64,000 bases of DNA, taken from the sequence record MT446386.1; one strand, 5' to 3'. The stretch's first letter is position 1. The number at the start of each line of letters is the position of its first letter. A program made the translations under genes and the position numbers. The notes beneath the pieces are model-generated. The model saw nothing but the letters and a program-made list of their open reading frames with translations, did not search any database and had not been told where the DNA came from. Shown here piece by piece: positions 6,996-26,056 of the stretch. This DNA is from Escherichia virus TH06.

Positions 6996-8840
6996 GTGAG
7001 CAACCCGGACGCTCTTCCATTTTTGACAGAGATGACTGTCGCTGATATAATCTCTAAGCAAGCAAAGCACGGAGTGAGTTTCAACCGAAGAAATGCTCGG
7101 TGGTATGTTCACCTCCTTAAAGAGATTATTGTTAATATTGACAGAGAGCTGATTCCTCTCTTACCTAAGATGAGATTAGATGGCTCTACTTACATGAAGC
7201 CGTTTAAGAAGTCTGGAGCTTTACAGAAGTGGCCTCAAGCCTATTGTGATAGGGTTGGGCTGAAGAGAGAAGATATTGGTGGAGCTTTTACCTGTGTCGA
7301 ATACGTAGACTTTGACCCATCGAAAGATGCACGAGTTAAAGAAGCTCTTATGGATGAGGGCTTTCTTCCTCCAGAGTTTAACGTATCTAAGAAGCCTTGG
7401 AATACTTTCGAAATTAAGAAAGATATGAGAAAGTATGGAACATACCAAGCATGGTATACTGCTTGGATGCGAGGCAATGCTAAGCAGAAGCAGACAGCCG
7501 AGATGGTTGACGCTGATATTAAGAAGTTCTTAGAAAAGCATTTCAGGTTTAAGACTAAGAATTACATGAAGGCTTACGTATTTGGTTTGGGGTTGAACCC
7601 TAATCGCCGTAATCCTGTAACGTTTGATGAGATTAAGAAAGCACTAGCCACATCAAACAAGTGGCCTACAGCTCCTACAAACCTCGAGGAGACTCTTGAA
7701 GAAGGGTTAGGGGGTGAGCTAGGGAGTGTCGGAAGTTTGCTTAAGAGACGCGTTGTAGCGGCTCACAGGCTAGGTCTTATCAGTGGACTCATAGCAAAGG
7801 AACGCGAAGATGGTAAACTTTCGGCAGAAGCTAACAGCTGCGCTACGCCGACTTTTCGATTCAAACATCGTATCGTGGTTAATATTCCCTCCCGTGGTCT
7901 GTTTGGTCACGAGTGTCGCAGTTTGTTTGAGTCTGACTATAACTCAGACAGTGATCACTCTCGTCCTTTCGTTATTACTAACGTTGTTCCTGATGGTTGT
8001 TATATACGAAAAGGTACTAACGTAATTTACGAGAAAGGTAAGCCGGGGAAGAAAGACAAACCTGTAGGCGCTTACAAATATTATATACCCGCTGGTAAAG
8101 AAGTATTCTTAGGGTATGATGGTTCTGGACTTGAACTTCGTATGCTCGCTCACTACCTCATTAAAGAGTGTAGGGATATGCTTGCTGAGGCAATTGAAGA
8201 GAACAACCCAGCTAAGAAAGCTCTGGCAGAACGTGGTTTAGCTTCTGCTATTATATATCGTGATATTCTCCTTGAAGGTGATATCCACTCCCACAACCAG
8301 AAACTTGCTGGTCTTCCTACTCGTGACAACGCTAAAACGTTTATCTATGCATTCAACTACGGTGCTGGCGATGCTAAGCTTGGTTCAATTGTAGGTGGTG
8401 GGGCTGATGAAGGTTCAGTGATGCGAGCACGTTTCTTAGCAGAGAACCCATGTATTGCAATCCTCATTGATCGTATGACAGAGAAAGCTGCTCAAGGATA
8501 CTTGATTGGAGTTGATGGTCGTAAGATTACAATGAGACGGGATGCCACTGGTAAGGTTATGGTTCATAAAGCCCTTAACACACTCCTGCAATGTGCTGGT
8601 GCTGTTGTTATGAAATATGCTATGATGTTCCTTAACAAGTGGATTGAGAAAGATAAGGTTCGTTGTGCTAAGGTAATTGATATGCACGATGAAGGTCAAT
8701 TCTCAGTAAACCGTAATGATGTACAGAAACTCAAAGAACACACTGAGCTTTGTGTTAAGAAAGCTGGCGAGTATCTGAACATGGAATGTCCTCTGGCATC
8801 TGATTGTCAGATTGGACTTAACTGGATGCATACACACTAA
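6996..8840 (+). CDS. family A DNA polymerase (polymerase domain)
   Basis: Motif A YDGSGLELRMLAH, motif B RDNAKTFIYAFNYGAG, motif C VIDMHDEGQ; GTG start after AGGAG; no obvious 3'-5' exonuclease motifs. Confidence 0.85.
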   Translation: MSNPDALPFLTEMTVADIISKQAKHGVSFNRRNARWYVHLLKEIIVNIDRELIPLLPKMRLDGSTYMKPFKKSGALQKWPQAYCDRVGLKREDIGGAFTCVEYVDFDPSKDARVKEALMDEGFLPPEFNVSKKPWNTFEIKKDMRKYGTYQAWYTAWMRGNAKQKQTAEMVDADIKKFLEKHFRFKTKNYMKAYVFGLGLNPNRRNPVTFDEIKKALATSNKWPTAPTNLEETLEEGLGGELGSVGSLLKRRVVAAHRLGLISGLIAKEREDGKLSAEANSCATPTFRFKHRIVVNIPSRGLFGHECRSLFESDYNSDSDHSRPFVITNVVPDGCYIRKGTNVIYEKGKPGKKDKPVGAYKYYIPAGKEVFLGYDGSGLELRMLAHYLIKECRDMLAEAIEENNPAKKALAERGLASAIIYRDILLEGDIHSHNQKLAGLPTRDNAKTFIYAFNYGAGDAKLGSIVGGGADEGSVMRARFLAENPCIAILIDRMTEKAAQGYLIGVDGRKITMRRDATGKVMVHKALNTLLQCAGAVVMKYAMMFLNKWIEKDKVRCAKVIDMHDEGQFSVNRNDVQKLKEHTELCVKKAGEYLNMECPLASDCQIGLNWMHTH

Positions 8841-10938: not shown

Positions 10939-11154
10939 ATGGAATACATTGATAAATACTCAAGTGAAGACTCAACCAACGCTGAAGTTTTGTTCGTACT
11001 AAAAACAGACTGCCTCGAACATGGTCAGCTCATTAACTTTATGGAGTTGGCAAAACTTAAAGAAGAGATTGATCAACTATACAGCGATGAGCAATCCAGA
11101 TTACTTTCCCTGTCCCTGCTAGGTGACTTAACTTGTGATGGATGTACTATCTAA
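10939..11154 (+). CDS. hypothetical protein (71 aa)
   Basis: Track ORF. Confidence 0.45.
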   Translation: MEYIDKYSSEDSTNAEVLFVLKTDCLEHGQLINFMELAKLKEEIDQLYSDEQSRLLSLSLLGDLTCDGCTI

Positions 11155-11163
11155 GAGGTCTTT

Positions 11164-11667
11164 ATGGCTGAAGTTTATTTTGCAGGGGATGGTCACTTAG
11201 GCCATCGCAACATCTGTAGTTTTCGTAAGCAATTTAAAACCATCGAAGAACACGACAAAGCAATCCTAGCTGCATTTGATCATGTAACTAAGCGTGATAA
11301 AATCTTCTTTACCGGTGATTGGGTGTTTGAAAAGTATGCCCTTGATATCATCGCTGAAGTAAGAGGAGAGAAGCATCTAGTCTTAGGAAACCATGACAGG
11401 TTAGAACTTCTCCCTGATATGATGAAAGTCTTCCGTAGAATCTCTGGTGATTATAAATATAAAGAGTTTTGGGTAACTCATATTCCTATTCACACTGATG
11501 AGATGAGATGGAAGTTTAATATTTATGCTCATACCCATAACCACGTAATTGATGATTGGAGATATTTCTGTACATCAATGGAGCAAATTAACTATAAAGC
11601 TGTTTCTCTGCAAGAGATTAGGAAGGTCTTTGATGAAAGAAGAAAAGAACAAGATCTCGTTATTTAA
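11164..11667 (+). CDS. calcineurin-like metallophosphoesterase
   Basis: GDGHLGH, GDW, GNHD and HTHNH motifs. Confidence 0.65.
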   Translation: MAEVYFAGDGHLGHRNICSFRKQFKTIEEHDKAILAAFDHVTKRDKIFFTGDWVFEKYALDIIAEVRGEKHLVLGNHDRLELLPDMMKVFRRISGDYKYKEFWVTHIPIHTDEMRWKFNIYAHTHNHVIDDWRYFCTSMEQINYKAVSLQEIRKVFDERRKEQDLVI

Positions 11668-11912
11668 AGAACCTGTAGTACATAAAGACTCTATCAGAGA
11701 TCAATATAATGAGATGTTAAAGAAACAAGCTGATTCTAATCTTCGTTATCAGAGGATAGTAGAAAAATCTAACTTTAAAGGTTTACTTGAATGGTAACTT
11801 ATATCCTTTACTTTTTAGCTTTCTTAGGAATAATCTTTTTATCTATTCTTATTGAATTTGGTTTAAGTAAGTTAGTTAATTATTTAGGTAATAAGTAATT
11901 AATATTCTTTTA

Positions 11913-11976
11913 AATAGAGAATCAAAGTCCCTAGGAGTCCCTACAACCTAAATCAAGGATTCCTTAATTCTCTATT
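11913..11976. promoter_or_regulatory. 10-bp perfect inverted repeat (AATAGAGAAT / ATTCTCTATT) flanking a 44-nt segment with internal AGTCCCTA direct repeat
   Basis: Read directly; lies in a 410-bp intergenic region rich in further hairpins and an AT-rich tract. Confidence 0.35.
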
Positions 11977-12145
11977 TTTATCTCGCAGGTGGCTCCTGCC
12001 CTTCGGTACTTGCAAGGGATTCTGTGAATTGCCCAATATACAAGCCTGCAATAACTTTATCAGCTATACAATATATACATTACTAGTGTGATATATCTAC
12101 TACCAAAGATACTTATATTATATAGTACTCTTATCGGTATAAGCG

Positions 12146-12154
12146 TAATGTATA
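12146..12154 (+). promoter_or_regulatory. TAATGTATA element, candidate phage-sigma promoter
   Basis: Exact 9-mer about 60 nt upstream of ATG 12214. Confidence 0.4.
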
Positions 12155-12213
12155 CTATACATAACCGCTCAAAGAGAGCAACAATCTTTCAAATTAAATA
12201 AGGAAATTAAAAT

Positions 12214-12960
12214 ATGTCTATGATTCCAACTATCGCAACCGCTTCCCGTAAATCCAACTACGATGTAATCCCTGATGGTGAGTACGAAGCACGTATCGTT
12301 CGTGTAGTAGGTTTGGGTGTTCACAATCGTGACCCTTGGATTGACCCGAAGACCAAAGCAGTGACTCCTAAGAATCCGGCTTTCCGTATGGATTTAGCTT
12401 TCGAGCTGATTGGTGTTGATGCTACTGGTAAAGATTCCGATGGTAAGGCATTAGAACCACGTCCAGCTTGCCAGTTCAAGAGCTATGATGTAAACCCACG
12501 AGCTAAGAACTCTGGTATTCTTGATCTTTGCAAGATGATTGACCCAAGTATTCAAGCACTGAAAGGTGATCTATCTTGGTTCAAGGATGTTCTGTTAGGT
12601 CAGCCTGTTAACATTCTGGTTAACTCTTACACTAACAAAGCTGGTGAAGTTAAAAACTCCATCAAGACCATTTCTCCAATCCCAACCAAATATCGTGCAG
12701 CAGTTGGTGAAGCTCGTAGTCCTCTGGTATTCTTCGAACCGTATGCTGAAACCGATGAGAACGTAGCATCCTATCAACTGATGTTCCCGTTCCAGCGCAA
12801 CCTGCTTACTCAAGCTAATGACGCTAAGAACATGCCTCTGGCTGGTCGTGAAATTACTCGTGCTTCTGAAACAGAACAGAAAGAAGCTACTCCTTCAATC
12901 CCTACGATTGATAAAGAGCCTGCTTCTACTTACGAAGACGACAACGATAGCCCATTCTAA
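12214..12960 (+). CDS. putative single-stranded DNA-binding protein
   Basis: Acidic C-terminal tail ending DDNDSPF resembles SSB C-termini; own element upstream and terminator downstream. Confidence 0.4.
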   Translation: MSMIPTIATASRKSNYDVIPDGEYEARIVRVVGLGVHNRDPWIDPKTKAVTPKNPAFRMDLAFELIGVDATGKDSDGKALEPRPACQFKSYDVNPRAKNSGILDLCKMIDPSIQALKGDLSWFKDVLLGQPVNILVNSYTNKAGEVKNSIKTISPIPTKYRAAVGEARSPLVFFEPYAETDENVASYQLMFPFQRNLLTQANDAKNMPLAGREITRASETEQKEATPSIPTIDKEPASTYEDDNDSPF

Positions 12961-12981
12961 TAACTCTCCTTGTTATAGCTT

Positions 12982-13005
12982 AGCCACCTCCGGGTGGCTT
13001 TTTTC
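12982..13005 (+). terminator. rho-independent terminator
   Basis: AGCCACC-TCCG-GGTGGCT followed by TTTTTT. Confidence 0.65.
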
Positions 13006-13017
13006 GTTGGAGACAAC

Positions 13018-13368
13018 ATGCAAAACACATTAAGTGATAACTTAGGGTTTATCGTTTTCTCAGCTCTTGTATTCTTTGGTGGTATGAAGTTTAACGAATA
13101 TCAAACAGACAGCAGTAATCTGGACAAAGAGAAGCACCAGCAAGAGTTAGAGATTGAAAGAAGTAGAGCAGCTGATGAAGTTGCTCAGAGAGTTCTTACC
13201 GGTTTATCTAACTGGAAGAAGAACACGGAAACCGTTTATAAAGAGATGCATTATGAGAAAACTAAACCAGTTTTTTATAATGTCTGCGCTAGTGATGAGT
13301 ATGTCAGCTTGTTCAACGAGCGACAACAGCAGGCAATCAATGCCCTTACCAACAAACCTAAAAGCTGA
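13018..13368 (+). CDS. membrane-anchored coiled-coil protein, i-spanin (Rz)-like architecture
   Basis: Start at ATG 13018 after GGAGA; N-terminal TM LGFIVFSALVFFGGM then charged helical region with late Cys. Confidence 0.4.
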   Translation: MQNTLSDNLGFIVFSALVFFGGMKFNEYQTDSSNLDKEKHQQELEIERSRAADEVAQRVLTGLSNWKKNTETVYKEMHYEKTKPVFYNVCASDEYVSLFNERQQQAINALTNKPKS

Positions 13369-13512
13369 ATGTAGGGTTGACCTACCTCTTTTAGAAAGTG
13401 CTCAAGGAAAAGCACTAGCCACTACGTTGGAGTGGTATCAGGACCAGTACACAGAATGTGCTGCTAATCACAATGGATTGTTAGAAGCTCTGAAAGAGCG
13501 TGGAATAGAATA

Positions 13513-13513
<1 letters not shown>
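13253..13513 (+). CDS. putative lipoprotein in +1 frame overlapping the 3' part of the previous gene, o-spanin (Rz1)-like
   Basis: MRKLNQFFIMSALVMSMSAC lipobox-like signal, Pro-containing mature part with Cys; overlapped arrangement. Confidence 0.3.
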
Positions 13514-15005
<1,492 letters not shown>

Positions 15006-20800: not shown

Positions 20801-22292
20801 GCATACCTTTCAGTTTCTTCAACCCACCGATAGCTTTCTTCATCTCTGGAGAAACATTATCAGCCATCTTCTGTAGTTCAGTAGCTTTCTCTACAAAGTT
20901 ATTAAAATCTTCACCTTCACGAGCTTTGAATCGATTTGCTTCATTGTAGAAAGTCTTGTAAGCATCAATGAAATCACGGTCAGCTTGTGTACGATTCTTA
21001 ATATCAATCGGACTACCAGTAAAATCACCAGAAGCTCGGAGAGAAGTTAATTCACGGTCTAGGTTATCTAGAACATCTGTAAGAGCTTTCGTGTTGTCTT
21101 TGGTGTAGTCAGCCATTGCATCCTTCATAGCAACAGCCTGCTTCTGGTTGTGCTCATTATCAGCAAATGCTTTACCACGAGTCTTAGCAGGAGAAGCTAA
21201 AGGATTAAGGCCCGGAATGTTGGAATGTTCTTTCTGAACAGAAGCAGCTTTCTCAGCACGAACTTGGTCAGTATTAAGAATACGCTGAGCAGCAGGAGAA
21301 TCTACAGCAACAGCATCTGTAATACGGAATCCATTCTCATCCAGAAGGTTAAGAGCAGAAGCAGCGTTAGCAGTTTCAGCTTTAGAGTAAGCTTCTTTCA
21401 GTTCATCAATATTCTTAGCACTACGAATTAGTTCATCATCAGCAGCAATATCAGTCTTCGCATACTCTGGAGTATTCTTGAAGACAGCAGAATCCGGACG
21501 GCTAATCAAACCATGAACCCCACCAACTGCACCACCGAATGCAGCACCCATAGCACCTTCTTCGATAGCACCTTCTAATACATTGGCAAAGGTTGTGTCA
21601 TCTCCGTGCTTATTCTGAGCTTCAGCAGCACCCACAAGAGCACCACCTTTAGCACCAGCCACTGCGTTACTAGCAACGTTCTGACCAATACGTCCAAGTG
21701 TGGACTCAGCTGTACCGACAGCACCTGGAAGGATTCTCTGAGCCGCATAGTTAGCACCACCAACTAAGGCTGCATCTAGAATAGACTTATCTTCTCCCTC
21801 TTCAGGGGTTTGGTCTGCATATGCACGACCTGTCTCACGACCTGCGATGATAGCAGCAGCAGCCAATGGGTTAGCAACTGTCAAACCGATATCACCAGCA
21901 ACGCCAGCATACTGACCGACAGTTTTACCAATCCCATCCTCAATCTTATCCATACGTTCTTTCAGAAGGTTCTGAGAGTTCTCTTGGATACGCTTACCAT
22001 AACTAGTTTGTGCTCCAGCTAGATTCTCACCAATCTCAACTAAACCACCAATACCTTTAGCAGCACTAGCTGCAATATTTGCACCACCAGATTGAAGAGC
22101 ATTTGACACACCTTGAGCAAACTCACCTATAGCACCACGTTCTTCTTGTTGTGGTTGTGCTACTGGTTGTTCCTCAGGAATAGAGCCACCTGCTGCCTTA
22201 TATTGTTCTCTCATTTGAGCTTGTTGCTCCGGAGAGGCATTCAGATACGCAGGAGCTTTGGAAGCTTCTTCCCACGGTTTAATGTTAGCCAT
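17871..22292 (-). CDS. large virion protein (1473 aa), coiled-coil and Ala/Glu-rich; internal virion/ejection protein or tape-measure-like
   Basis: Start moved to MANIKPW (ATG at 22292) 6 nt after GGAGACG; last gene of the late block. Confidence 0.5.
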   Translation of the reverse strand: MANIKPWEEASKAPAYLNASPEQQAQMREQYKAAGGSIPEEQPVAQPQQEERGAIGEFAQGVSNALQSGGANIAASAAKGIGGLVEIGENLAGAQTSYGKRIQENSQNLLKERMDKIEDGIGKTVGQYAGVAGDIGLTVANPLAAAAIIAGRETGRAYADQTPEEGEDKSILDAALVGGANYAAQRILPGAVGTAESTLGRIGQNVASNAVAGAKGGALVGAAEAQNKHGDDTTFANVLEGAIEEGAMGAAFGGAVGGVHGLISRPDSAVFKNTPEYAKTDIAADDELIRSAKNIDELKEAYSKAETANAASALNLLDENGFRITDAVAVDSPAAQRILNTDQVRAEKAASVQKEHSNIPGLNPLASPAKTRGKAFADNEHNQKQAVAMKDAMADYTKDNTKALTDVLDNLDRELTSLRASGDFTGSPIDIKNRTQADRDFIDAYKTFYNEANRFKAREGEDFNNFVEKATELQKMADNVSPEMKKAIGGLKKLKGMPEGFNPIQDAYTLNNTAKFMSNQDRGWTSLTDDGFREASSPSLVMNTLGAAKYALNRFSSQRARSQRVKQQESNSEAIRSLARGDLEVARAKSTADEARAKMEEEPVVDDIKFKTQNDVETEPVREPSSSTVTEENLPSSTPQETPLTARDLVAQRRAIRQAEQRRAEEEAAAAQEAPVEQAPQAEPLPARNPLEERRAMEQQRAQEEAAQAPEPTVEEPTVKAEPLPARAPKAPKEAVQDVKPASGVERLAAMSSAARQATKDRAERFARSLYSKAAKAKATAENFLAYKGDPKELMRRIRQEDNAINTERHEEMARNQLASQQGIATAKNNTVRTNFAEWVKERGLPEDIATKALRAEEKGLGGNVTNLDSLKRRAERLYQKQREDEFDRLYQQALEENKAFDKKDAPKLVDQKKELQSEIDALIDSEPLRPAQKDAMRKLMNDFVDGKFKSSEKAGREEALEVGQMKDIWDGFINTYNREVNAFNKANKNSQYEAAAKHLQAREERLATLRKKAQARSDAKAAVENERKTLEAIAAQKSEIEKMMEGLPKPVREAQESRTLKQLAAHHDKNSPVPPEKFRSYIERIHNAESDYLDRQRRLTDAEEDARQAKWNKMYEQAEEMNRKFDVDKRVKRSEELKAAQERENDLMAVQRQRDDIHRRLMRTMEDKGISREDAEAFAGSYMDNRYALLEKPMTPTEHQNARSRIEADVEKFAKKYESMTPIEKEIVKVTGDTEGKLDNLDADTRKAIEEAQKVDSDIKKLQEEELEMEKIRSALPDDERSQANSDILESIKQQEEVFADKVEKAFLSGKSLDELVSVAEVLDRVHGADKAGNNRRFVRALQTAAENKKKYGDNPVAWFSADDYSAIAKLGASSAGGNKSRALEKIFGSTAEQAKSKLLGRDDVAKMRRVIEENPDIKIPSYKTTNRTEYLQFLEKFNDEGKPKIKRGSLSEKLERSKRQSRLRVRVRPKE

Positions 22293-25003: not shown

Positions 25004-26056
25004 TTAGTTTGCTCCAAATGCCCCTAAGACACCACCTAAGATATTACTACCTGCTGTGGATAACCAGTTAGACTGACCTCTCTGTTGAGAAAGATTAGAA
25101 CCTCCAATCATAGGTCCAGCCATTCCAGATTGCCCACCTGAGTTGTTATAGGAACTCCAAGCATTCTGAGTCTGTTGATTAGGAGAGAAAGCACCCATAC
25201 GACCTGCAATACCTAAACCAGTGATACCAGCACCTAGGAGCTGTTGTCCAGTATTAACACCCGGAGCAGCATTCTTAATTGTATACCCAGCCATTGGGCT
25301 TACACTATTTAATACATTAAGTTGGTTGTTAAGCTGATTCCACCCATACTGCTGAGAGCCAATAGCGTTCTGCCAATTAATATCAGCTTGAGCTTGGGCT
25401 TGTTGCTGTTGTAGATTACCAGCCATGAGTTGATTCTGGATAGCTTGTTGAGTTGCCTGAACACCTTGAGCACCTAGGTTGAGATTCTGTCCAGCCAATC
25501 CTGACTGAGCACCAAGTAAACCTCTCTGGAAGTTTTGGTCTTGTTGAAGAGCACTGATTCCCATATTCTTGCCACTGATAGTACGAGCTAAGTTTGTATT
25601 AGCACTGTTCAGAGCAGCACCTTGAGCAGCAGCTCTACGGAGAGAGCCTGAATCAGAACCATTTCCGAGGGATACATTGGAAGCTGCCTTACTAGTCGCT
25701 TGAGCAAGAGCTGAGTTATTCAATCCTTTACTAAAGTTATTAACACCATCAGCAGTTAGACCACCACCATTGACAATATTCTGATACTGCTGTGCAAGAG
25801 AGTTTAATTGGTCCAACCCTTGCTGTGTACGAGGCGTGTACATATCAGCCAATTGCTTCTGAGTAGTAGAAGCTGCTAAGTTGTTCAGAGCACCCTGTTG
25901 GTTGCCATTAAACCCAGCCAGTTGTTGGGAGATGAATCCCGGATCGTTGTTCTGCATATTCTGAGCATTAGCAACAATCTGCTTCAGCAGGGCATCAACC
26001 TGAGAGGAAGGGGCCACTGTGGTTTTGCTAGAAGCTGATTTTCCAAATAAAGACAT
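25004..26056 (-). CDS. Q/N/G-rich low-complexity virion protein (350 aa)
   Basis: Paralog-like to ORF 24023-24991. Confidence 0.45.
   Translation of the reverse strand: MSLFGKSASSKTTVAPSSQVDALLKQIVANAQNMQNNDPGFISQQLAGFNGNQQGALNNLAASTTQKQLADMYTPRTQQGLDQLNSLAQQYQNIVNGGGLTADGVNNFSKGLNNSALAQATSKAASNVSLGNGSDSGSLRRAAAQGAALNSANTNLARTISGKNMGISALQQDQNFQRGLLGAQSGLAGQNLNLGAQGVQATQQAIQNQLMAGNLQQQQAQAQADINWQNAIGSQQYGWNQLNNQLNVLNSVSPMAGYTIKNAAPGVNTGQQLLGAGITGLGIAGRMGAFSPNQQTQNAWSSYNNSGGQSGMAGPMIGGSNLSQQRGQSNWLSTAGSNILGGVLGAFGAN

What the first reader, a model, noticed from the sequence alone, without database searches (positions are those of the whole stretch)
11800..12213. Structured 410-bp intergenic region upstream of the SSB-like gene
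The region contains a perfect 10-bp inverted repeat (11913-11922 / 11967-11976) enclosing AGTCCCTA direct repeats and an AAGGATTCCTT palindrome, then consecutive hairpins (GCAGG-TGGCT-CCTGC, CCCTT...AAGGG, ATTGC...GCAAT), then an AT-rich tract with TATAC repeats and the TAATGTATA element. A small hydrophobic 35-codon ORF (11791-11898) also lies here. Candidate replication origin or structured non-coding RNA next to the SSB gene.
Basis: seen in the sequence. Interest (0 to 1): 0.5.

Follow-up and report, generated by a model that had tools for sequence, protein, structure and literature searches.

The report
Divergent phage-sigma promoters, candidate small RNA
The gap before the SSB-like gene of this phiEco32-type coliphage holds the already known promoter of that gene plus an apparently undescribed, conserved promoter of the same phage-sigma type pointing the other way, which should make a roughly 156-base non-coding RNA of unknown function.

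Summary
The window is a phiEco32-like coliphage (Kuravirus). The TAATGTATA element (12146-12154, +) is the published gp36 (phage sigma)-dependent middle promoter of gene 40.

The 'TATAC repeats' belong to a second site on the minus strand, TTGGTAGTAGAT-N12-TAATGTATATA (12106→12072). It nearly copies promoter P68, including the -37G and -34A that gp36 contacts. I found it in no annotation or paper that I could read.

Both of its boxes are conserved in relatives, while the spacer varies in sequence but keeps its length within each clade (one base shorter in the most diverged relatives).

In all 24 distinct alleles with the promoter intact, a 5-7 bp hairpin with seven different stem sequences starts at the predicted +1 (A12067, or 2 nt after it in one allele). 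Downstream lie a swappable middle module and a nearly invariant block, 11912-12005. That block holds hairpin GCAGG/CCTGC (one compensatory A-U→U-A change) and the 66-nt hairpin containing the AGTCCCTA repeats.

Best reading: two divergent gp36 promoters, the leftward one making a ~156-nt non-coding RNA. The big hairpin probably also ends the upstream operon. No transcript data exist, so function is unknown. A replication origin is neither supported nor excluded.

The parts
11791..11898 (+). Gene 41: a 35-aa hydrophobic small protein whose start overlaps the stop of the upstream gene (ATGGTAA). It is the last gene of the upstream transcription unit.
   Evidence: ORF list. Annotated as phi32_41 in phiEco32. 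PHROG 24970, E = 6e-26. Length and hydrophobic character are kept in EP335 despite many substitutions. The gene is absent from the ECBP2/Bas87/Bas88/Paul group.
11912..11977 (.). H4: a 66-nt compound hairpin. The outer arms are AAATAGAGAAT / ATTCTCTATTT, and it encloses the AGTCCCTA x2 repeats and AAGGATTCCTT. It is predicted to be the 3'-terminal structure of the minus-strand RNA. On the plus strand it is followed by a T-run (11975-11979) and may stop or process transcripts from gene 41.
   Evidence: Searches give the arms. Fold energies are -23.5 kcal/mol (minus, z = -2.8) and -18.2 kcal/mol (plus, z = -2.4). 58 of 66 columns are invariant in 23 relatives. All indels fall in loops or bulges. 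Two invariant G.U pairs exist only on the minus strand.
11985..11999 (.). H3: hairpin GCAGG-TGGCT-CCTGC (minus-strand RNA: GCAGG-AGCCA-CCUGC), inside the invariant block 11978-12005.
   Evidence: The stem is identical in 23 kuravirus-type sequences and the loop varies G/T. L045 has GCTGG...CCAGC, a compensatory A-U to U-A change.
12006..12050 (-). Variable middle module of the predicted RNA.
   Evidence: Unrelated sequence replaces it in MN05/ECBP2/EcM-vB1-type relatives (about 26 nt longer) and in L045/L046/L049. Folding is not better than shuffled sequence for the window type (z = -0.8).
12051..12067 (-). H1: the 5' hairpin of the predicted minus-strand RNA, AUAGCU-GAUAA-AGUUAU, starting at the predicted +1 (A at 12067).
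   Evidence: Covariation UA<->GC and CG<->UA<->AU, plus 9 G.U pairs that would be A.C on the plus strand. All 24 distinct alleles with the promoter intact have a 5-7 bp hairpin at this point, starting 9 nt after the AATGxA hexamer (2 nt later in L034). There are seven different stem sequences.
12072..12106 (-). P(-): predicted gp36-dependent promoter firing leftward. TTGGTAGTAGAT lies at 12106-12095 (TTGGTA = -39..-34), followed by a 12-nt variable spacer and TAATGTATATA at 12082-12072 (AATGTA = -14..-9).
   Evidence: It matches 11 of 11 positions of the tAATGTATAtA consensus and 6 of 6 of P68's TTGGTA, the best combined site in the window. TTGGTAGTAGATAT occurs exactly twice in 64 kb, here and at P68. 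TGGTA-N19-AATGTA is exact only at these two sites. -37G and -34A are the gp36 CTD contacts in the P68 cryo-EM structure. The boxes are conserved and the spacer is free.
12107..12121 (.). AT-rich, unconstrained spacer between the two divergent promoters.
   Evidence: Pairwise identity is 0.38. A ~150-bp insertion with a 47-aa ORF sits here in EcM-vB1-type phages.
12122..12161 (+). P40: the known gp36-dependent middle promoter of gene 40. ATAGTA lies at -39..-34 and TAATGTATA at 12146-12154. Predicted +1 is A12161.
   Evidence: The SU10 S2 Table lists 'aagcgtaatgtatactatacataaccgctcaaagagagcaa' between CDS37 and CDS38, identical to the window sequence. The consensus and its distance to the start site are described, and AATGTA centred at -11.5.
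12161..12213 (+). 53-nt leader of gene 40: an invariant segment 12163-12190 with a small hairpin GCUC-AAAGA-GAGC, then an AU-rich tract and the Shine-Dalgarno AAGGA (12200-12204).
   Evidence: Identity is 0.94 with 23 of 28 columns invariant. A chance-level Rfam hit to DUF2815 RNA has E = 7.4.
12214..12960 (+). Gene 40: an OB-fold, SSB-like protein with an acidic C-terminal tail ending in Phe.

Best explanation
The 315-bp gap between genes 41 and 40 of this phiEco32-like phage is a compound transcription-control region built around two back-to-back promoters for the phage's own sigma factor gp36.

(1) Known. P40 (AATGTA 12147-12152, predicted +1 12161) transcribes the SSB-like gene 40 rightward through a conserved 53-nt leader.

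(2) Inferred, and as far as I could find undescribed. A second gp36 promoter on the opposite strand (TTGGTA 12106-12101, AATGTA 12081-12076) resembles the gp79-activated middle promoter P68 more closely than P40 does. It should start transcription at A12067 and run leftward. It should therefore be active at middle times, together with the replication genes.

The predicted product has no AUG or GUG and no conserved frame. In order it contains:
- a covarying 5' hairpin, H1;
- a module that differs completely between phage lineages;
- a nearly invariant 3' block with hairpins H3 and H4.

Conservation stops at the base of H4 (11912), so the functional RNA is about 156 nt (about 182 nt in lineages with the longer module).

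(3) Inferred. The same H4 hairpin, read on the plus strand, is followed by a T-run and lies 14 nt after the gene 41 stop. It probably also ends or processes the upstream operon. Having to work on both strands would help explain why its sequence is almost frozen.

What the RNA does is not shown. My best guess is a regulatory or protein-binding small RNA of the middle phase rather than a primer.
For: - Identity of the phage: 98 Escherichia/Shigella phage records (those checked are Gordonclarkvirinae) match at 75-100%.
- P40: its sequence is published in the SU10 S2 Table, and the consensus is described.
- P(-) match: 11 of 11 on the extended -10 consensus and 6 of 6 on TTGGTA at the P68 position. 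The 14-mer TTGGTAGTAGATAT occurs only here and at P68.
- The pattern TGGTA-N19-AATGTA is exact only at P68 and P(-). With one mismatch it picks up P40, the late promoter that SU10 lists between CDS3 and CDS4 (gttgaTAATGTAGAagg), and one further site at 25342.
- The gp36 CTD contacts -37G and -34A in the P68 structure, and both are present here.
- Conservation: both boxes are kept in 24 of 25 distinct relatives (one has AATATA). The spacer has fixed length but only 0.44 identity.
- More diverged relatives keep the same architecture, as TTGGTA-N18-AATGTA or GTGGTA-N18-AATGAA.
- P(-) stays with the hairpin module, not with P40, when a 150-bp insertion separates them.
- H1: a hairpin lies at the predicted +1 in all 24 alleles with the promoter intact (offset by 2 nt in one), with seven different stem sequences.
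- H1 formal counts: 2 pairs with compensatory changes and 9 G.U cells that would be A.C on the plus strand.
- H3: one compensatory change in L045.
- H4: it is significantly stable on both strands, and its indels fall in unpaired positions.
- The minus strand folds better than the plus strand in 17 of 17 sequences, mean -46.8 versus -39.7 kcal/mol.
- Not coding: the only minus-strand ORF (TTG start, 32 aa) is broken by indels and by module replacement in relatives.
- The conserved block is 0.96-0.98 identical, against 0.75 at gp40 third codon positions.
Against: - There are no transcript data of any kind. Initiation at P(-) is predicted only.
- The six gp36 promoters reported for phiEco32 do not appear to include this site. 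I could not read Pavlova et al. 2012 itself.
- On the minus strand H4 is not followed by a U-run, and no other terminator is predicted for 900 nt. The 3' end is inferred from where conservation stops.
- H3 and H4 hardly vary, so covariation cannot prove them. Two singleton variants (Bas88, MAVE01) favour plus-strand pairing in H4 and one (L038) favours minus.
- The better minus-strand folding may partly reflect base composition. Shuffle z-scores are only about -2.
- One metagenomic relative has the key -11G mutated (L028).
- In L046/L049 the hexamer is AATGAA, while their own P40 keeps AATGTA.
- The module is absent from relatives at 59-70% gp40 identity.
Confidence: 0.6

Rival explanations
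1. Transcription-activated or transcription-primed replication origin. The leftward gp36 transcript forms an R-loop or primer in the conserved H3-H4 block, or the two divergent promoters open the AT-rich DNA between them. This would resemble the T7 primary origin (phage promoters plus an AT-rich tract) or T4 oriF/oriG (a middle promoter plus an unwinding element).
For: - A strong phage-specific promoter with no gene to serve points against the flow of all neighbouring genes.
- It sits inside the replication gene block (family A DNA polymerase at 6996-8840, OB-fold SSB-like gp40).
- An AT-rich spacer lies between the divergent promoters.
- The near-invariant 94-bp block could be a protein- or primer-processing site.
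- No origin has been described for this phage group in the papers searched.
Against: - There are only two 8-bp direct repeats, no iteron array and no DnaA box.
- The inter-promoter AT-rich DNA is unconstrained and accepts a 150-bp insertion.
- GC skew follows gene orientation, apart from an unresolved local dip over about 11-14 kb.
- The DNA downstream of P(-) is a set of stable hairpins rather than an easily melted tract.
- The covarying 5' hairpin with G.U pairs points to a folded, free RNA.
- Relatives at 59-70% gp40 identity lack the module altogether yet must also replicate.
Confidence: 0.15
2. Plus-strand elements only. H4 plus the T-run is the terminator or RNase III-type processing and stability hairpin of the gene 41 operon, and H3 is an accessory hairpin. 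The minus-strand promoter look-alike is silent or incidental. The conserved islands persist because they act as homology linkers for recombination between mosaic phages.
For: - H4 lies 14 nt after the gene 41 stop and is followed by TTTTTAT on the plus strand only. It is stable on the plus strand (z = -2.4).
- The region is clearly mosaic. Middle modules, H1 types, the P40 upstream region and the presence of gene 41 assort independently between phages, with junctions at the conserved islands.
- Two singleton H4 variants keep pairing only on the plus strand.
Against: - A terminator does not need 58 of 66 invariant positions including its loops.
- The phage's canonical terminators are short and GC-rich, such as 12982-12999, and the scanner did not call H4.
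- This reading leaves unexplained the exact conservation of a bipartite promoter with a free spacer.
- It leaves unexplained a hairpin that tracks the predicted start site through seven different stem sequences.
- It leaves unexplained the G.U pairs that are mismatches on the plus strand.
Confidence: 0.15
3. A double-stranded DNA site for a phage or host DNA-binding protein, such as a regulator of P40 or P(-) or a nucleoid or packaging factor, which recognises the dyad AAATAGAGAAT/ATTCTCTATTT and the tandem AGTCC(C)TA repeats.
For: - A perfect 11-bp dyad encloses two direct repeats spaced one helical turn apart.
- The sequence is invariant, not merely its structure.
- Both repeat copies lose one C together in the ECBP2/Bas87/Paul group, as if read by one factor.
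Against: - Arm-to-arm spacing changes by 2 bp, and repeat spacing changes from 10 to 9 bp between lineages. That would rotate sites on duplex DNA but is neutral in hairpin loops.
- The motifs occur nowhere else in the 64 kb.
- No candidate binding protein was identified.
Confidence: 0.1

Closest known systems
phiEco32 gp36-dependent promoter P68 (middle, gp79-activated; cryo-EM open complex in Nucleic Acids Res 2025, PMC12276001)
   Same: It shares the 12-nt upstream box TTGGTAGTAGAT with -37G and -34A. The 19-nt distance from TTGGTA to AATGTA is the same. The extended -10 TATATA follows, and an A lies at the predicted +1.
   Different: The window's site points against the middle genes and has no protein-coding gene downstream. 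It is not among the promoters listed in the papers I could read. Its activity has not been tested.
phiEco32/SU10 promoter P40 (middle promoter between SU10 CDS37 and CDS38)
   Different: Nothing differs. This part of the finding is already known.
Lambda OOP RNA (a short antisense RNA from its own promoter pO, next to the origin region)
   Same: Both would be short non-coding RNAs from a dedicated promoter that points against the neighbouring genes in the replication region of a phage.
   Different: OOP ends at a canonical intrinsic terminator and overlaps the 3' end of cII, which it silences. Here no U-run follows H4 on the minus strand. The conserved RNA stops 14 nt short of gene 41, so antisense action is not evident. 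The promoter uses a phage sigma factor, not sigma-70. This comparison rests on my own knowledge and was not tested here.
T7 primary origin and T4 oriF/oriG (origins made of phage-specific promoters plus a downstream element)
   Same: A phage-specific promoter within the replication gene block whose transcript has no coding role.
   Different: Those origins have an AT-rich or easily unwound element downstream of the promoter. Here the downstream DNA encodes stable hairpins, and the AT-rich DNA lies upstream and is unconstrained. No replication data exist. This comparison also rests on my own knowledge.

Membership tests
gp36 (phiEco32 sigma)-dependent promoters | Consensus tAATGTATAtA, with AATGTA centred at -11.5 | tested here: met
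   P(-) matches 11 of 11 and P40 matches 9 of 11.
gp36 (phiEco32 sigma)-dependent promoters | -35 region read by the gp36 CTD (-37G and -34A in P68) | tested here: met
   P(-) has TTGGTA at -39..-34, identical to P68. P40 has ATAGTA, so only -34A.
gp36 (phiEco32 sigma)-dependent promoters | Transcription by RNAP-gp36 starting 6-8 nt after the motif, in vivo or in vitro | not testable with these tools
   No transcript data are available. A hairpin that tracks the predicted +1 in 24 alleles is indirect support.
gp36 (phiEco32 sigma)-dependent promoters | Located upstream of middle or late protein-coding genes | tested here: not met
   P(-) faces away from gene 40. The first 170 nt downstream have no AUG or GUG and no conserved ORF, and all annotated neighbours are on the other strand.
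Intrinsic (Rho-independent) terminator (H4 read on the plus strand) | GC-rich stem immediately followed by a U-run | tested here: inconclusive
   A five-U run spans the end of the 3' arm and the two bases after it (11975-11979). However, the lower stem is A-U rich, the hairpin is 66 nt with internal loops, and the scanner did not call it.
Intrinsic terminator (H4 read on the minus strand, as the end of the predicted RNA) | U-run after the stem | tested here: not met
   The stem is followed by AAAAGAAUAUU. No terminator-like site is found on the minus strand between 11000 and 12067.
Any described RNA family (Rfam 15) | Score at or above the family's gathering threshold | tested here: not met
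   Nothing in the region reaches gathering scores. With E up to 10 there are only two chance-level hits, CRISPR-DR47 (E = 3.2) and DUF2815 RNA (E = 7.4).
Iteron or DnaA-box type replication origin | An array of three or more direct repeats and/or DnaA boxes next to an AT-rich unwinding element | tested here: not met
   There are only two 8-bp repeats, and the motif is not enriched elsewhere. I saw no TTATNCACA in the sequence. The AT-rich spacer is unconstrained.
Promoter-type phage origin (T7 or T4 kind) | Replication initiation mapped to a phage-specific promoter and its transcript | not testable with these tools
   The promoter is present. GC skew is largely uninformative: it follows gene orientation apart from an unresolved local dip at about 11-14 kb. 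This needs marker-frequency or RNA-DNA junction mapping.
Structured non-coding RNA (generic) | Base pairs kept through compensatory changes in relatives | tested here: met
   H1 has 2 pairs with double changes in the formal count, and seven different stem sequences overall. H3 has one A-U to U-A change. H4 is invariant and therefore uninformative.

The most novel reading that the evidence does not exclude
The leftward gp36 promoter makes a discrete, abundant middle-phase small RNA that is a functional component of the phage programme.

One version is a licensing or primer RNA that couples firing of the still unmapped replication origin to the phage's own sigma factor. That would be a T7/T4-style transcription-dependent origin in a phage that has no RNA polymerase of its own.

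The other version is a protein-binding RNA. Its frozen 94-nt 3' domain carries four GGA motifs, two of them in the tandem UAGG(G)ACU repeat, and could sequester a host or phage factor.
Probability: 0.2. Interest if true: 0.7.

Novelty: new member of a known kind. Interest (0 to 1): 0.5.

Why it matters
phiEco32 is the reference system for a phage that reprograms E. coli RNA polymerase with its own sigma factor (gp36) and a co-activator (gp79). Its promoter set is thought to be six sites, all serving protein-coding operons.

A seventh site, the closest match to the structurally characterised P68, would add a non-coding output to that regulatory programme. It is conserved across the phiEco32-like coliphage genera sampled here (Kuravirus, Suseptimavirus, Nieuwekanaalvirus) and drives a conserved structured RNA instead of a gene.

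These phages are widely isolated for therapy. A conserved small RNA expressed beside the replication genes could act on host takeover, on the timing of SSB and replication gene expression, or on origin firing. None of these is understood in this group.

The question is cheap to test. The promoter, the predicted start site and the expected product size are all defined, and the needed proteins (RNAP, gp36, gp79) have already been purified in published work.

The practical lesson for annotation is that the 'TATAC repeats' and TAATGTATA words in this gap are two opposed copies of one promoter motif.

Tried and rejected
- **tRNA or tmRNA:** none in the region.
- **Known RNA family:** none.
- **Small protein on the minus strand:** rejected. 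The 32-codon ORF 12051-11953 starts with TTG. It is frame-shifted in SU7-type phages and replaced in MN05-type phages. The RNA has no AUG or GUG.
- **Sigma-70 promoters or canonical terminators:** counts are not above shuffled expectation. The only terminator call is after gene 40.
- **Host mimicry or host-derived sequence:** no match in 5,426 complete E. coli genomes, even at E = 10.
- **Base-pairing target elsewhere in the phage:** the longest shared words are 11-12 nt, about the number expected by chance. The GCAGGTGGCTC match at 22183-22193 lies inside a coding region.
- **Extra copies of the element:** none elsewhere in the window.
- **Conserved overall fold of the middle module:** not supported, with z about -0.7 for the window type.
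- **G-quadruplex or R-loop signature:** the GGG runs are too far apart, and two of them become GG in the Bas87 group.
- **GC-skew evidence for an origin:** skew follows gene orientation. A local dip at about 11-14 kb was not pursued.
- **P(-) as an upstream activating element of P40:** rejected. A 150-bp insertion separates them in EcM-vB1-type phages, and P(-) stays with the hairpin module.
- **Primary papers:** attempts to read Pavlova 2012 and Savalia 2008 failed because they are not held.
- **One mis-specified search:** a pattern search with the wrong spacing was redone correctly.
Full report
**What the window is.** The region 11600-12400 matches 98 Escherichia and Shigella phage records at 75-100% identity. 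Those I opened are Gordonclarkvirinae (Kuravirus, Suseptimavirus, Nieuwekanaalvirus), including phiEco32 and SU10.

- In phiEco32 the ORF 12214-12960 is gene 40.
- The 35-codon ORF 11791-11898 is gene 41.
- The phage sigma factor gp36 lies at 13973-14620 (PHROG 1740).
- A family A DNA polymerase lies at 6996-8840.

- The inverted repeat is in fact 11 perfect bp: 11912-11922 / 11967-11977.
- As a fold the region is only modestly unusual. The 162-nt stretch gives z = -1.6 (plus) and -2.1 (minus). The 66-nt hairpin gives z = -2.4 and -2.8.

Conservation is what makes it non-random. Mean pairwise identity in 23 relatives:

| Segment | Identity |
|---|---|
| Big hairpin H4 | 0.96 |
| Linker plus GCAGG hairpin H3 | 0.98 |
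| Minus-strand -10 box | 0.98 |
| Minus-strand -35 box | 0.91 |
| P40 -10 box | 0.91 |
| Gene 40 leader (12163-12190) | 0.94 |
| Promoter spacers | 0.38-0.45 |
| gp40 third codon positions | 0.75 |

The CCCTT/AAGGG and ATTGC/GCAAT hairpins are not conserved.

**The known part.** The SU10 genome paper lists, among middle promoters recognised by the phage sigma, 'aagcgtaatgtatactatacataaccgctcaaagagagcaa between CDS37 and CDS38' (PMC4281155 S2 Table). That is the window's 12140-12180 exactly.

The motif tAATGTATAtA lies 6-8 nt upstream of mapped starts of the six gp36 promoters of phiEco32. AATGTA is centred at -11.5.

**The part I could not find described.** A perfect TAATGTATA also lies on the minus strand at 12074-12082. 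Read on that strand, 12106→12072 is TTGGTAGTAGATATATCACACTAGTAATGTATATA.

- P68, the middle promoter used for the gp79-gp36-RNAP open-complex structure, is TTGGTAGTAGATATGATAACTCTCAAATGTATATA.
- The two share the 14-mer TTGGTAGTAGATAT, which occurs only at these two places in 64 kb. They also share the distance to AATGTA.
- In the structure the gp36 C-terminal domain contacts -37G and -34A, and mutating them abolishes transcription. Both are present here.
- Of all AATGTA sites in the window this one has the best combined score: 11 of 11 on the extended -10 and 6 of 6 on TTGGTA.
- The bipartite pattern TGGTA-N19-AATGTA is exact only at P68 and here. With one mismatch it finds P40, the known late promoter upstream of the 47.3-kb late genes, and one further site at 25342.

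The predicted start is A12067.

**Conservation of that promoter.**

- In 28 distinct sequences of the kuravirus-type group, the -35 box and -10 box are kept. The 12 nt between them vary freely but never change length.
- One metagenomic variant has AATATA.
- More diverged relatives, reached through gp40 homologues at 71-82% identity, keep the same layout. L045 has TTGGTA-N18-AATGTA. L046, L049 and L050 have GTGGTA-N18-AATGAA. Their spacers again differ.
- In EcM-vB1-type phages a 150-bp insertion carrying a 47-codon ORF separates this promoter from P40. The promoter stays next to the hairpin module, so it is not an upstream element of P40.

**The predicted transcript.** From +1 leftward it has four parts.

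- **H1 (12067→12051), AUAGCU-GAUAA-AGUUAU.** In all 24 distinct promoter alleles a 5-7 bp hairpin begins 9 nt after the AATGxA hexamer (two bases later in L034, which has a TA insertion). It is always followed by U(U)GCA.
  - There are seven different stem sequences: AUAGCU/AGCUAU, AUAGCU/AGUUAU, AGAGUUA/UAACUCU, AUAGUU/AACUAU, AUAGA/UCUAU, AUCUCU/AGAGGU and ACAUC/GAUGU.
  - On 23 aligned sequences two pairs show compensatory changes.
  - Nine cells are G.U pairs, which would be A.C mismatches in a plus-strand RNA.
- **A middle module (12050→12006).** It exists in at least three unrelated versions and does not fold better than shuffled sequence in the window type.
- **H3 (11999→11985), GCAGG-AGCCA-CCUGC.** The stem is invariant, except that L045 has GCUGG...CCAGC, a compensatory A-U to U-A change.
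- **H4 (11977→11912), the 66-nt hairpin.** It is almost invariant.
  - All three lineage-specific indels, and the extra base of L046/L049, fall in its apical loop, a bulge or the internal loop.
  - On the minus strand its stem runs 15-16 bp and includes two invariant G.U pairs.

Further points on the transcript:

- The minus strand folds better than the plus strand in 17 of 17 sequences. That may partly reflect base composition.
- The RNA has no AUG or GUG. Its only ORF (TTG start, 32 codons) is not conserved.
- Conservation ends at the base of H4. To the left, phages with and without gene 41 have unrelated sequence. The functional unit is therefore about 156 nt.

**What remains uncertain.**

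- Nothing here shows that the promoter fires.
- On the minus strand H4 is followed by AAAAGAA, not a U-run, and no terminator is predicted further on. The 3' end would have to come from weak termination, Rho, or processing back to the hairpin.
- On the plus strand H4 lies 14 nt after the gene 41 stop and is followed by TTTTTAT. That fits a terminator or processing and stability hairpin for the upstream operon, although the stem base is A-U rich and the scanner did not call it.
- I think both uses are likely. A hairpin that must fold on both strands, with different inner pairings, has few neutral mutations, which would help explain its frozen sequence.
- Single variants are split. Two keep pairing only on the plus strand and one only on the minus strand.

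**Origin hypothesis.**

- In its favour: a strong phage promoter with no gene, inside the replication block, back to back with the SSB-like gene's promoter across an AT-rich spacer. No origin is described for this group.
- Against it:
  - there are only two short repeats and no DnaA boxes;
  - the AT-rich spacer is unconstrained;
  - GC skew follows gene orientation, apart from a dip over about 11-14 kb that I did not resolve further;
  - the DNA downstream of the promoter is strongly structured rather than easily melted;
  - the whole module is absent from relatives at 59-70% gp40 identity, whose short gap holds only a plus-strand TGGTAC-N19-AATGGA promoter.

I give it about 0.15.

**Literature and databases.**

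- No Rfam family matches.
- No host sequence matches.
- No paper in the searchable library mentions an antisense RNA, a small RNA or an origin at this locus.
- GenBank annotations of the relatives show nothing on the minus strand. They sometimes call spurious plus-strand ORFs across the gap, such as 4E8 g037c and 101114UKE3_039.
- I could not read Pavlova et al. 2012 or Savalia et al. 2008. 'Undescribed' is therefore qualified.

**Verdict.** Part of it is a known promoter. The rest is best explained as a second, divergent gp36 promoter making a conserved structured non-coding RNA, with its 3' hairpin doubling as the end of the upstream operon.

It is a new member of known kinds: gp36 promoters, and phage small RNAs with their own promoter. 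It is moderately interesting because it is sharply defined and easy to test, but its function is open.

Noticed in passing
window 12163-12213: The leader of gene 40 is nearly invariant in relatives (AACCGCTCAAAGAGAGCAACAATCTT, 23 of 28 columns). It has a small hairpin GCUC-AAAGA-GAGC followed by an AU-rich tract (AAAUUAAAUAAGGAAAUUAAAAU) up to the start codon. This resembles the layout of the T4 gene 32 autoregulatory leader, a comparison from my own knowledge. The only Rfam hint is a chance-level hit to DUF2815 RNA (E = 7.4). Possible translational autoregulation of the SSB-like protein is untested.
   Followed up: partly
window 25342-25300 (minus strand): TGGAATCAGCTTAACAACCAACTTAATGTATTAA matches the bipartite gp36 promoter pattern with one mismatch, on the late-gene strand. 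It is not among the promoters listed in the SU10 S2 Table and may be an additional late promoter.
   Followed up: no
window 11926-11943, with loci L005, L011-L014, L035 and L045: Both copies of the AGTCCCTA repeat lose one C together in the ECBP2/Bas87/Bas88/Paul/L045 lineages (AGTCCTAGGAGTCCT). The core CCTAGG palindrome is kept. This concerted change of two adjacent repeats is unexplained.
   Followed up: partly
L006 852-995 (EcM-vB1); also L016, L028-L032, L040: A ~150-bp insertion lies between the two divergent promoters. It carries a 47-codon ORF (MKFNHKYAATEKARAYV...) with no obvious ribosome-binding site, followed by a small hairpin ACTACC-TTTC-GGTAGT. It is a mobile small gene, or 'moron', in an otherwise conserved gap.
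   Followed up: no
[not shown]
   Followed up: partly
L020 2356, L021 2359, L047 and L048 (gap upstream of the gene 40 homologue): Relatives at 59-70% gp40 identity have TGGTAC (or TGGAAC)-N19-AATGGA upstream of the gene. The architecture is the same but the hexamer is AATGGA. This suggests co-variation of the -10 hexamer with the sigma factor across the subfamily.
   Followed up: partly
window 11000-14000: GC skew drops to about zero (-0.01 to 0.04) over 11-14 kb, inside a long run of +0.12 to +0.18. The dip covers the gap and gene 40. It could reflect gene 40 composition and was not resolved at finer scale.
   Followed up: no
window 11791-11898: Gene 41 encodes a 35-aa hydrophobic peptide coupled to the upstream gene by ATGGTAA. 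It is present in most kuraviruses but missing in several lineages (ECBP2, Bas87, Bas88, Paul, E20-1), where the phosphoesterase gene ends directly before H4.
   Followed up: partly
L001 1897-2091 (4E8 g037c); L037 299-460 (101114UKE3_039): Some GenBank records annotate plus-strand 'hypothetical protein' CDSs across the non-coding gap, over the hairpins and both promoters. Stop codons and indels in relatives make these likely annotation artefacts.
   Followed up: partly
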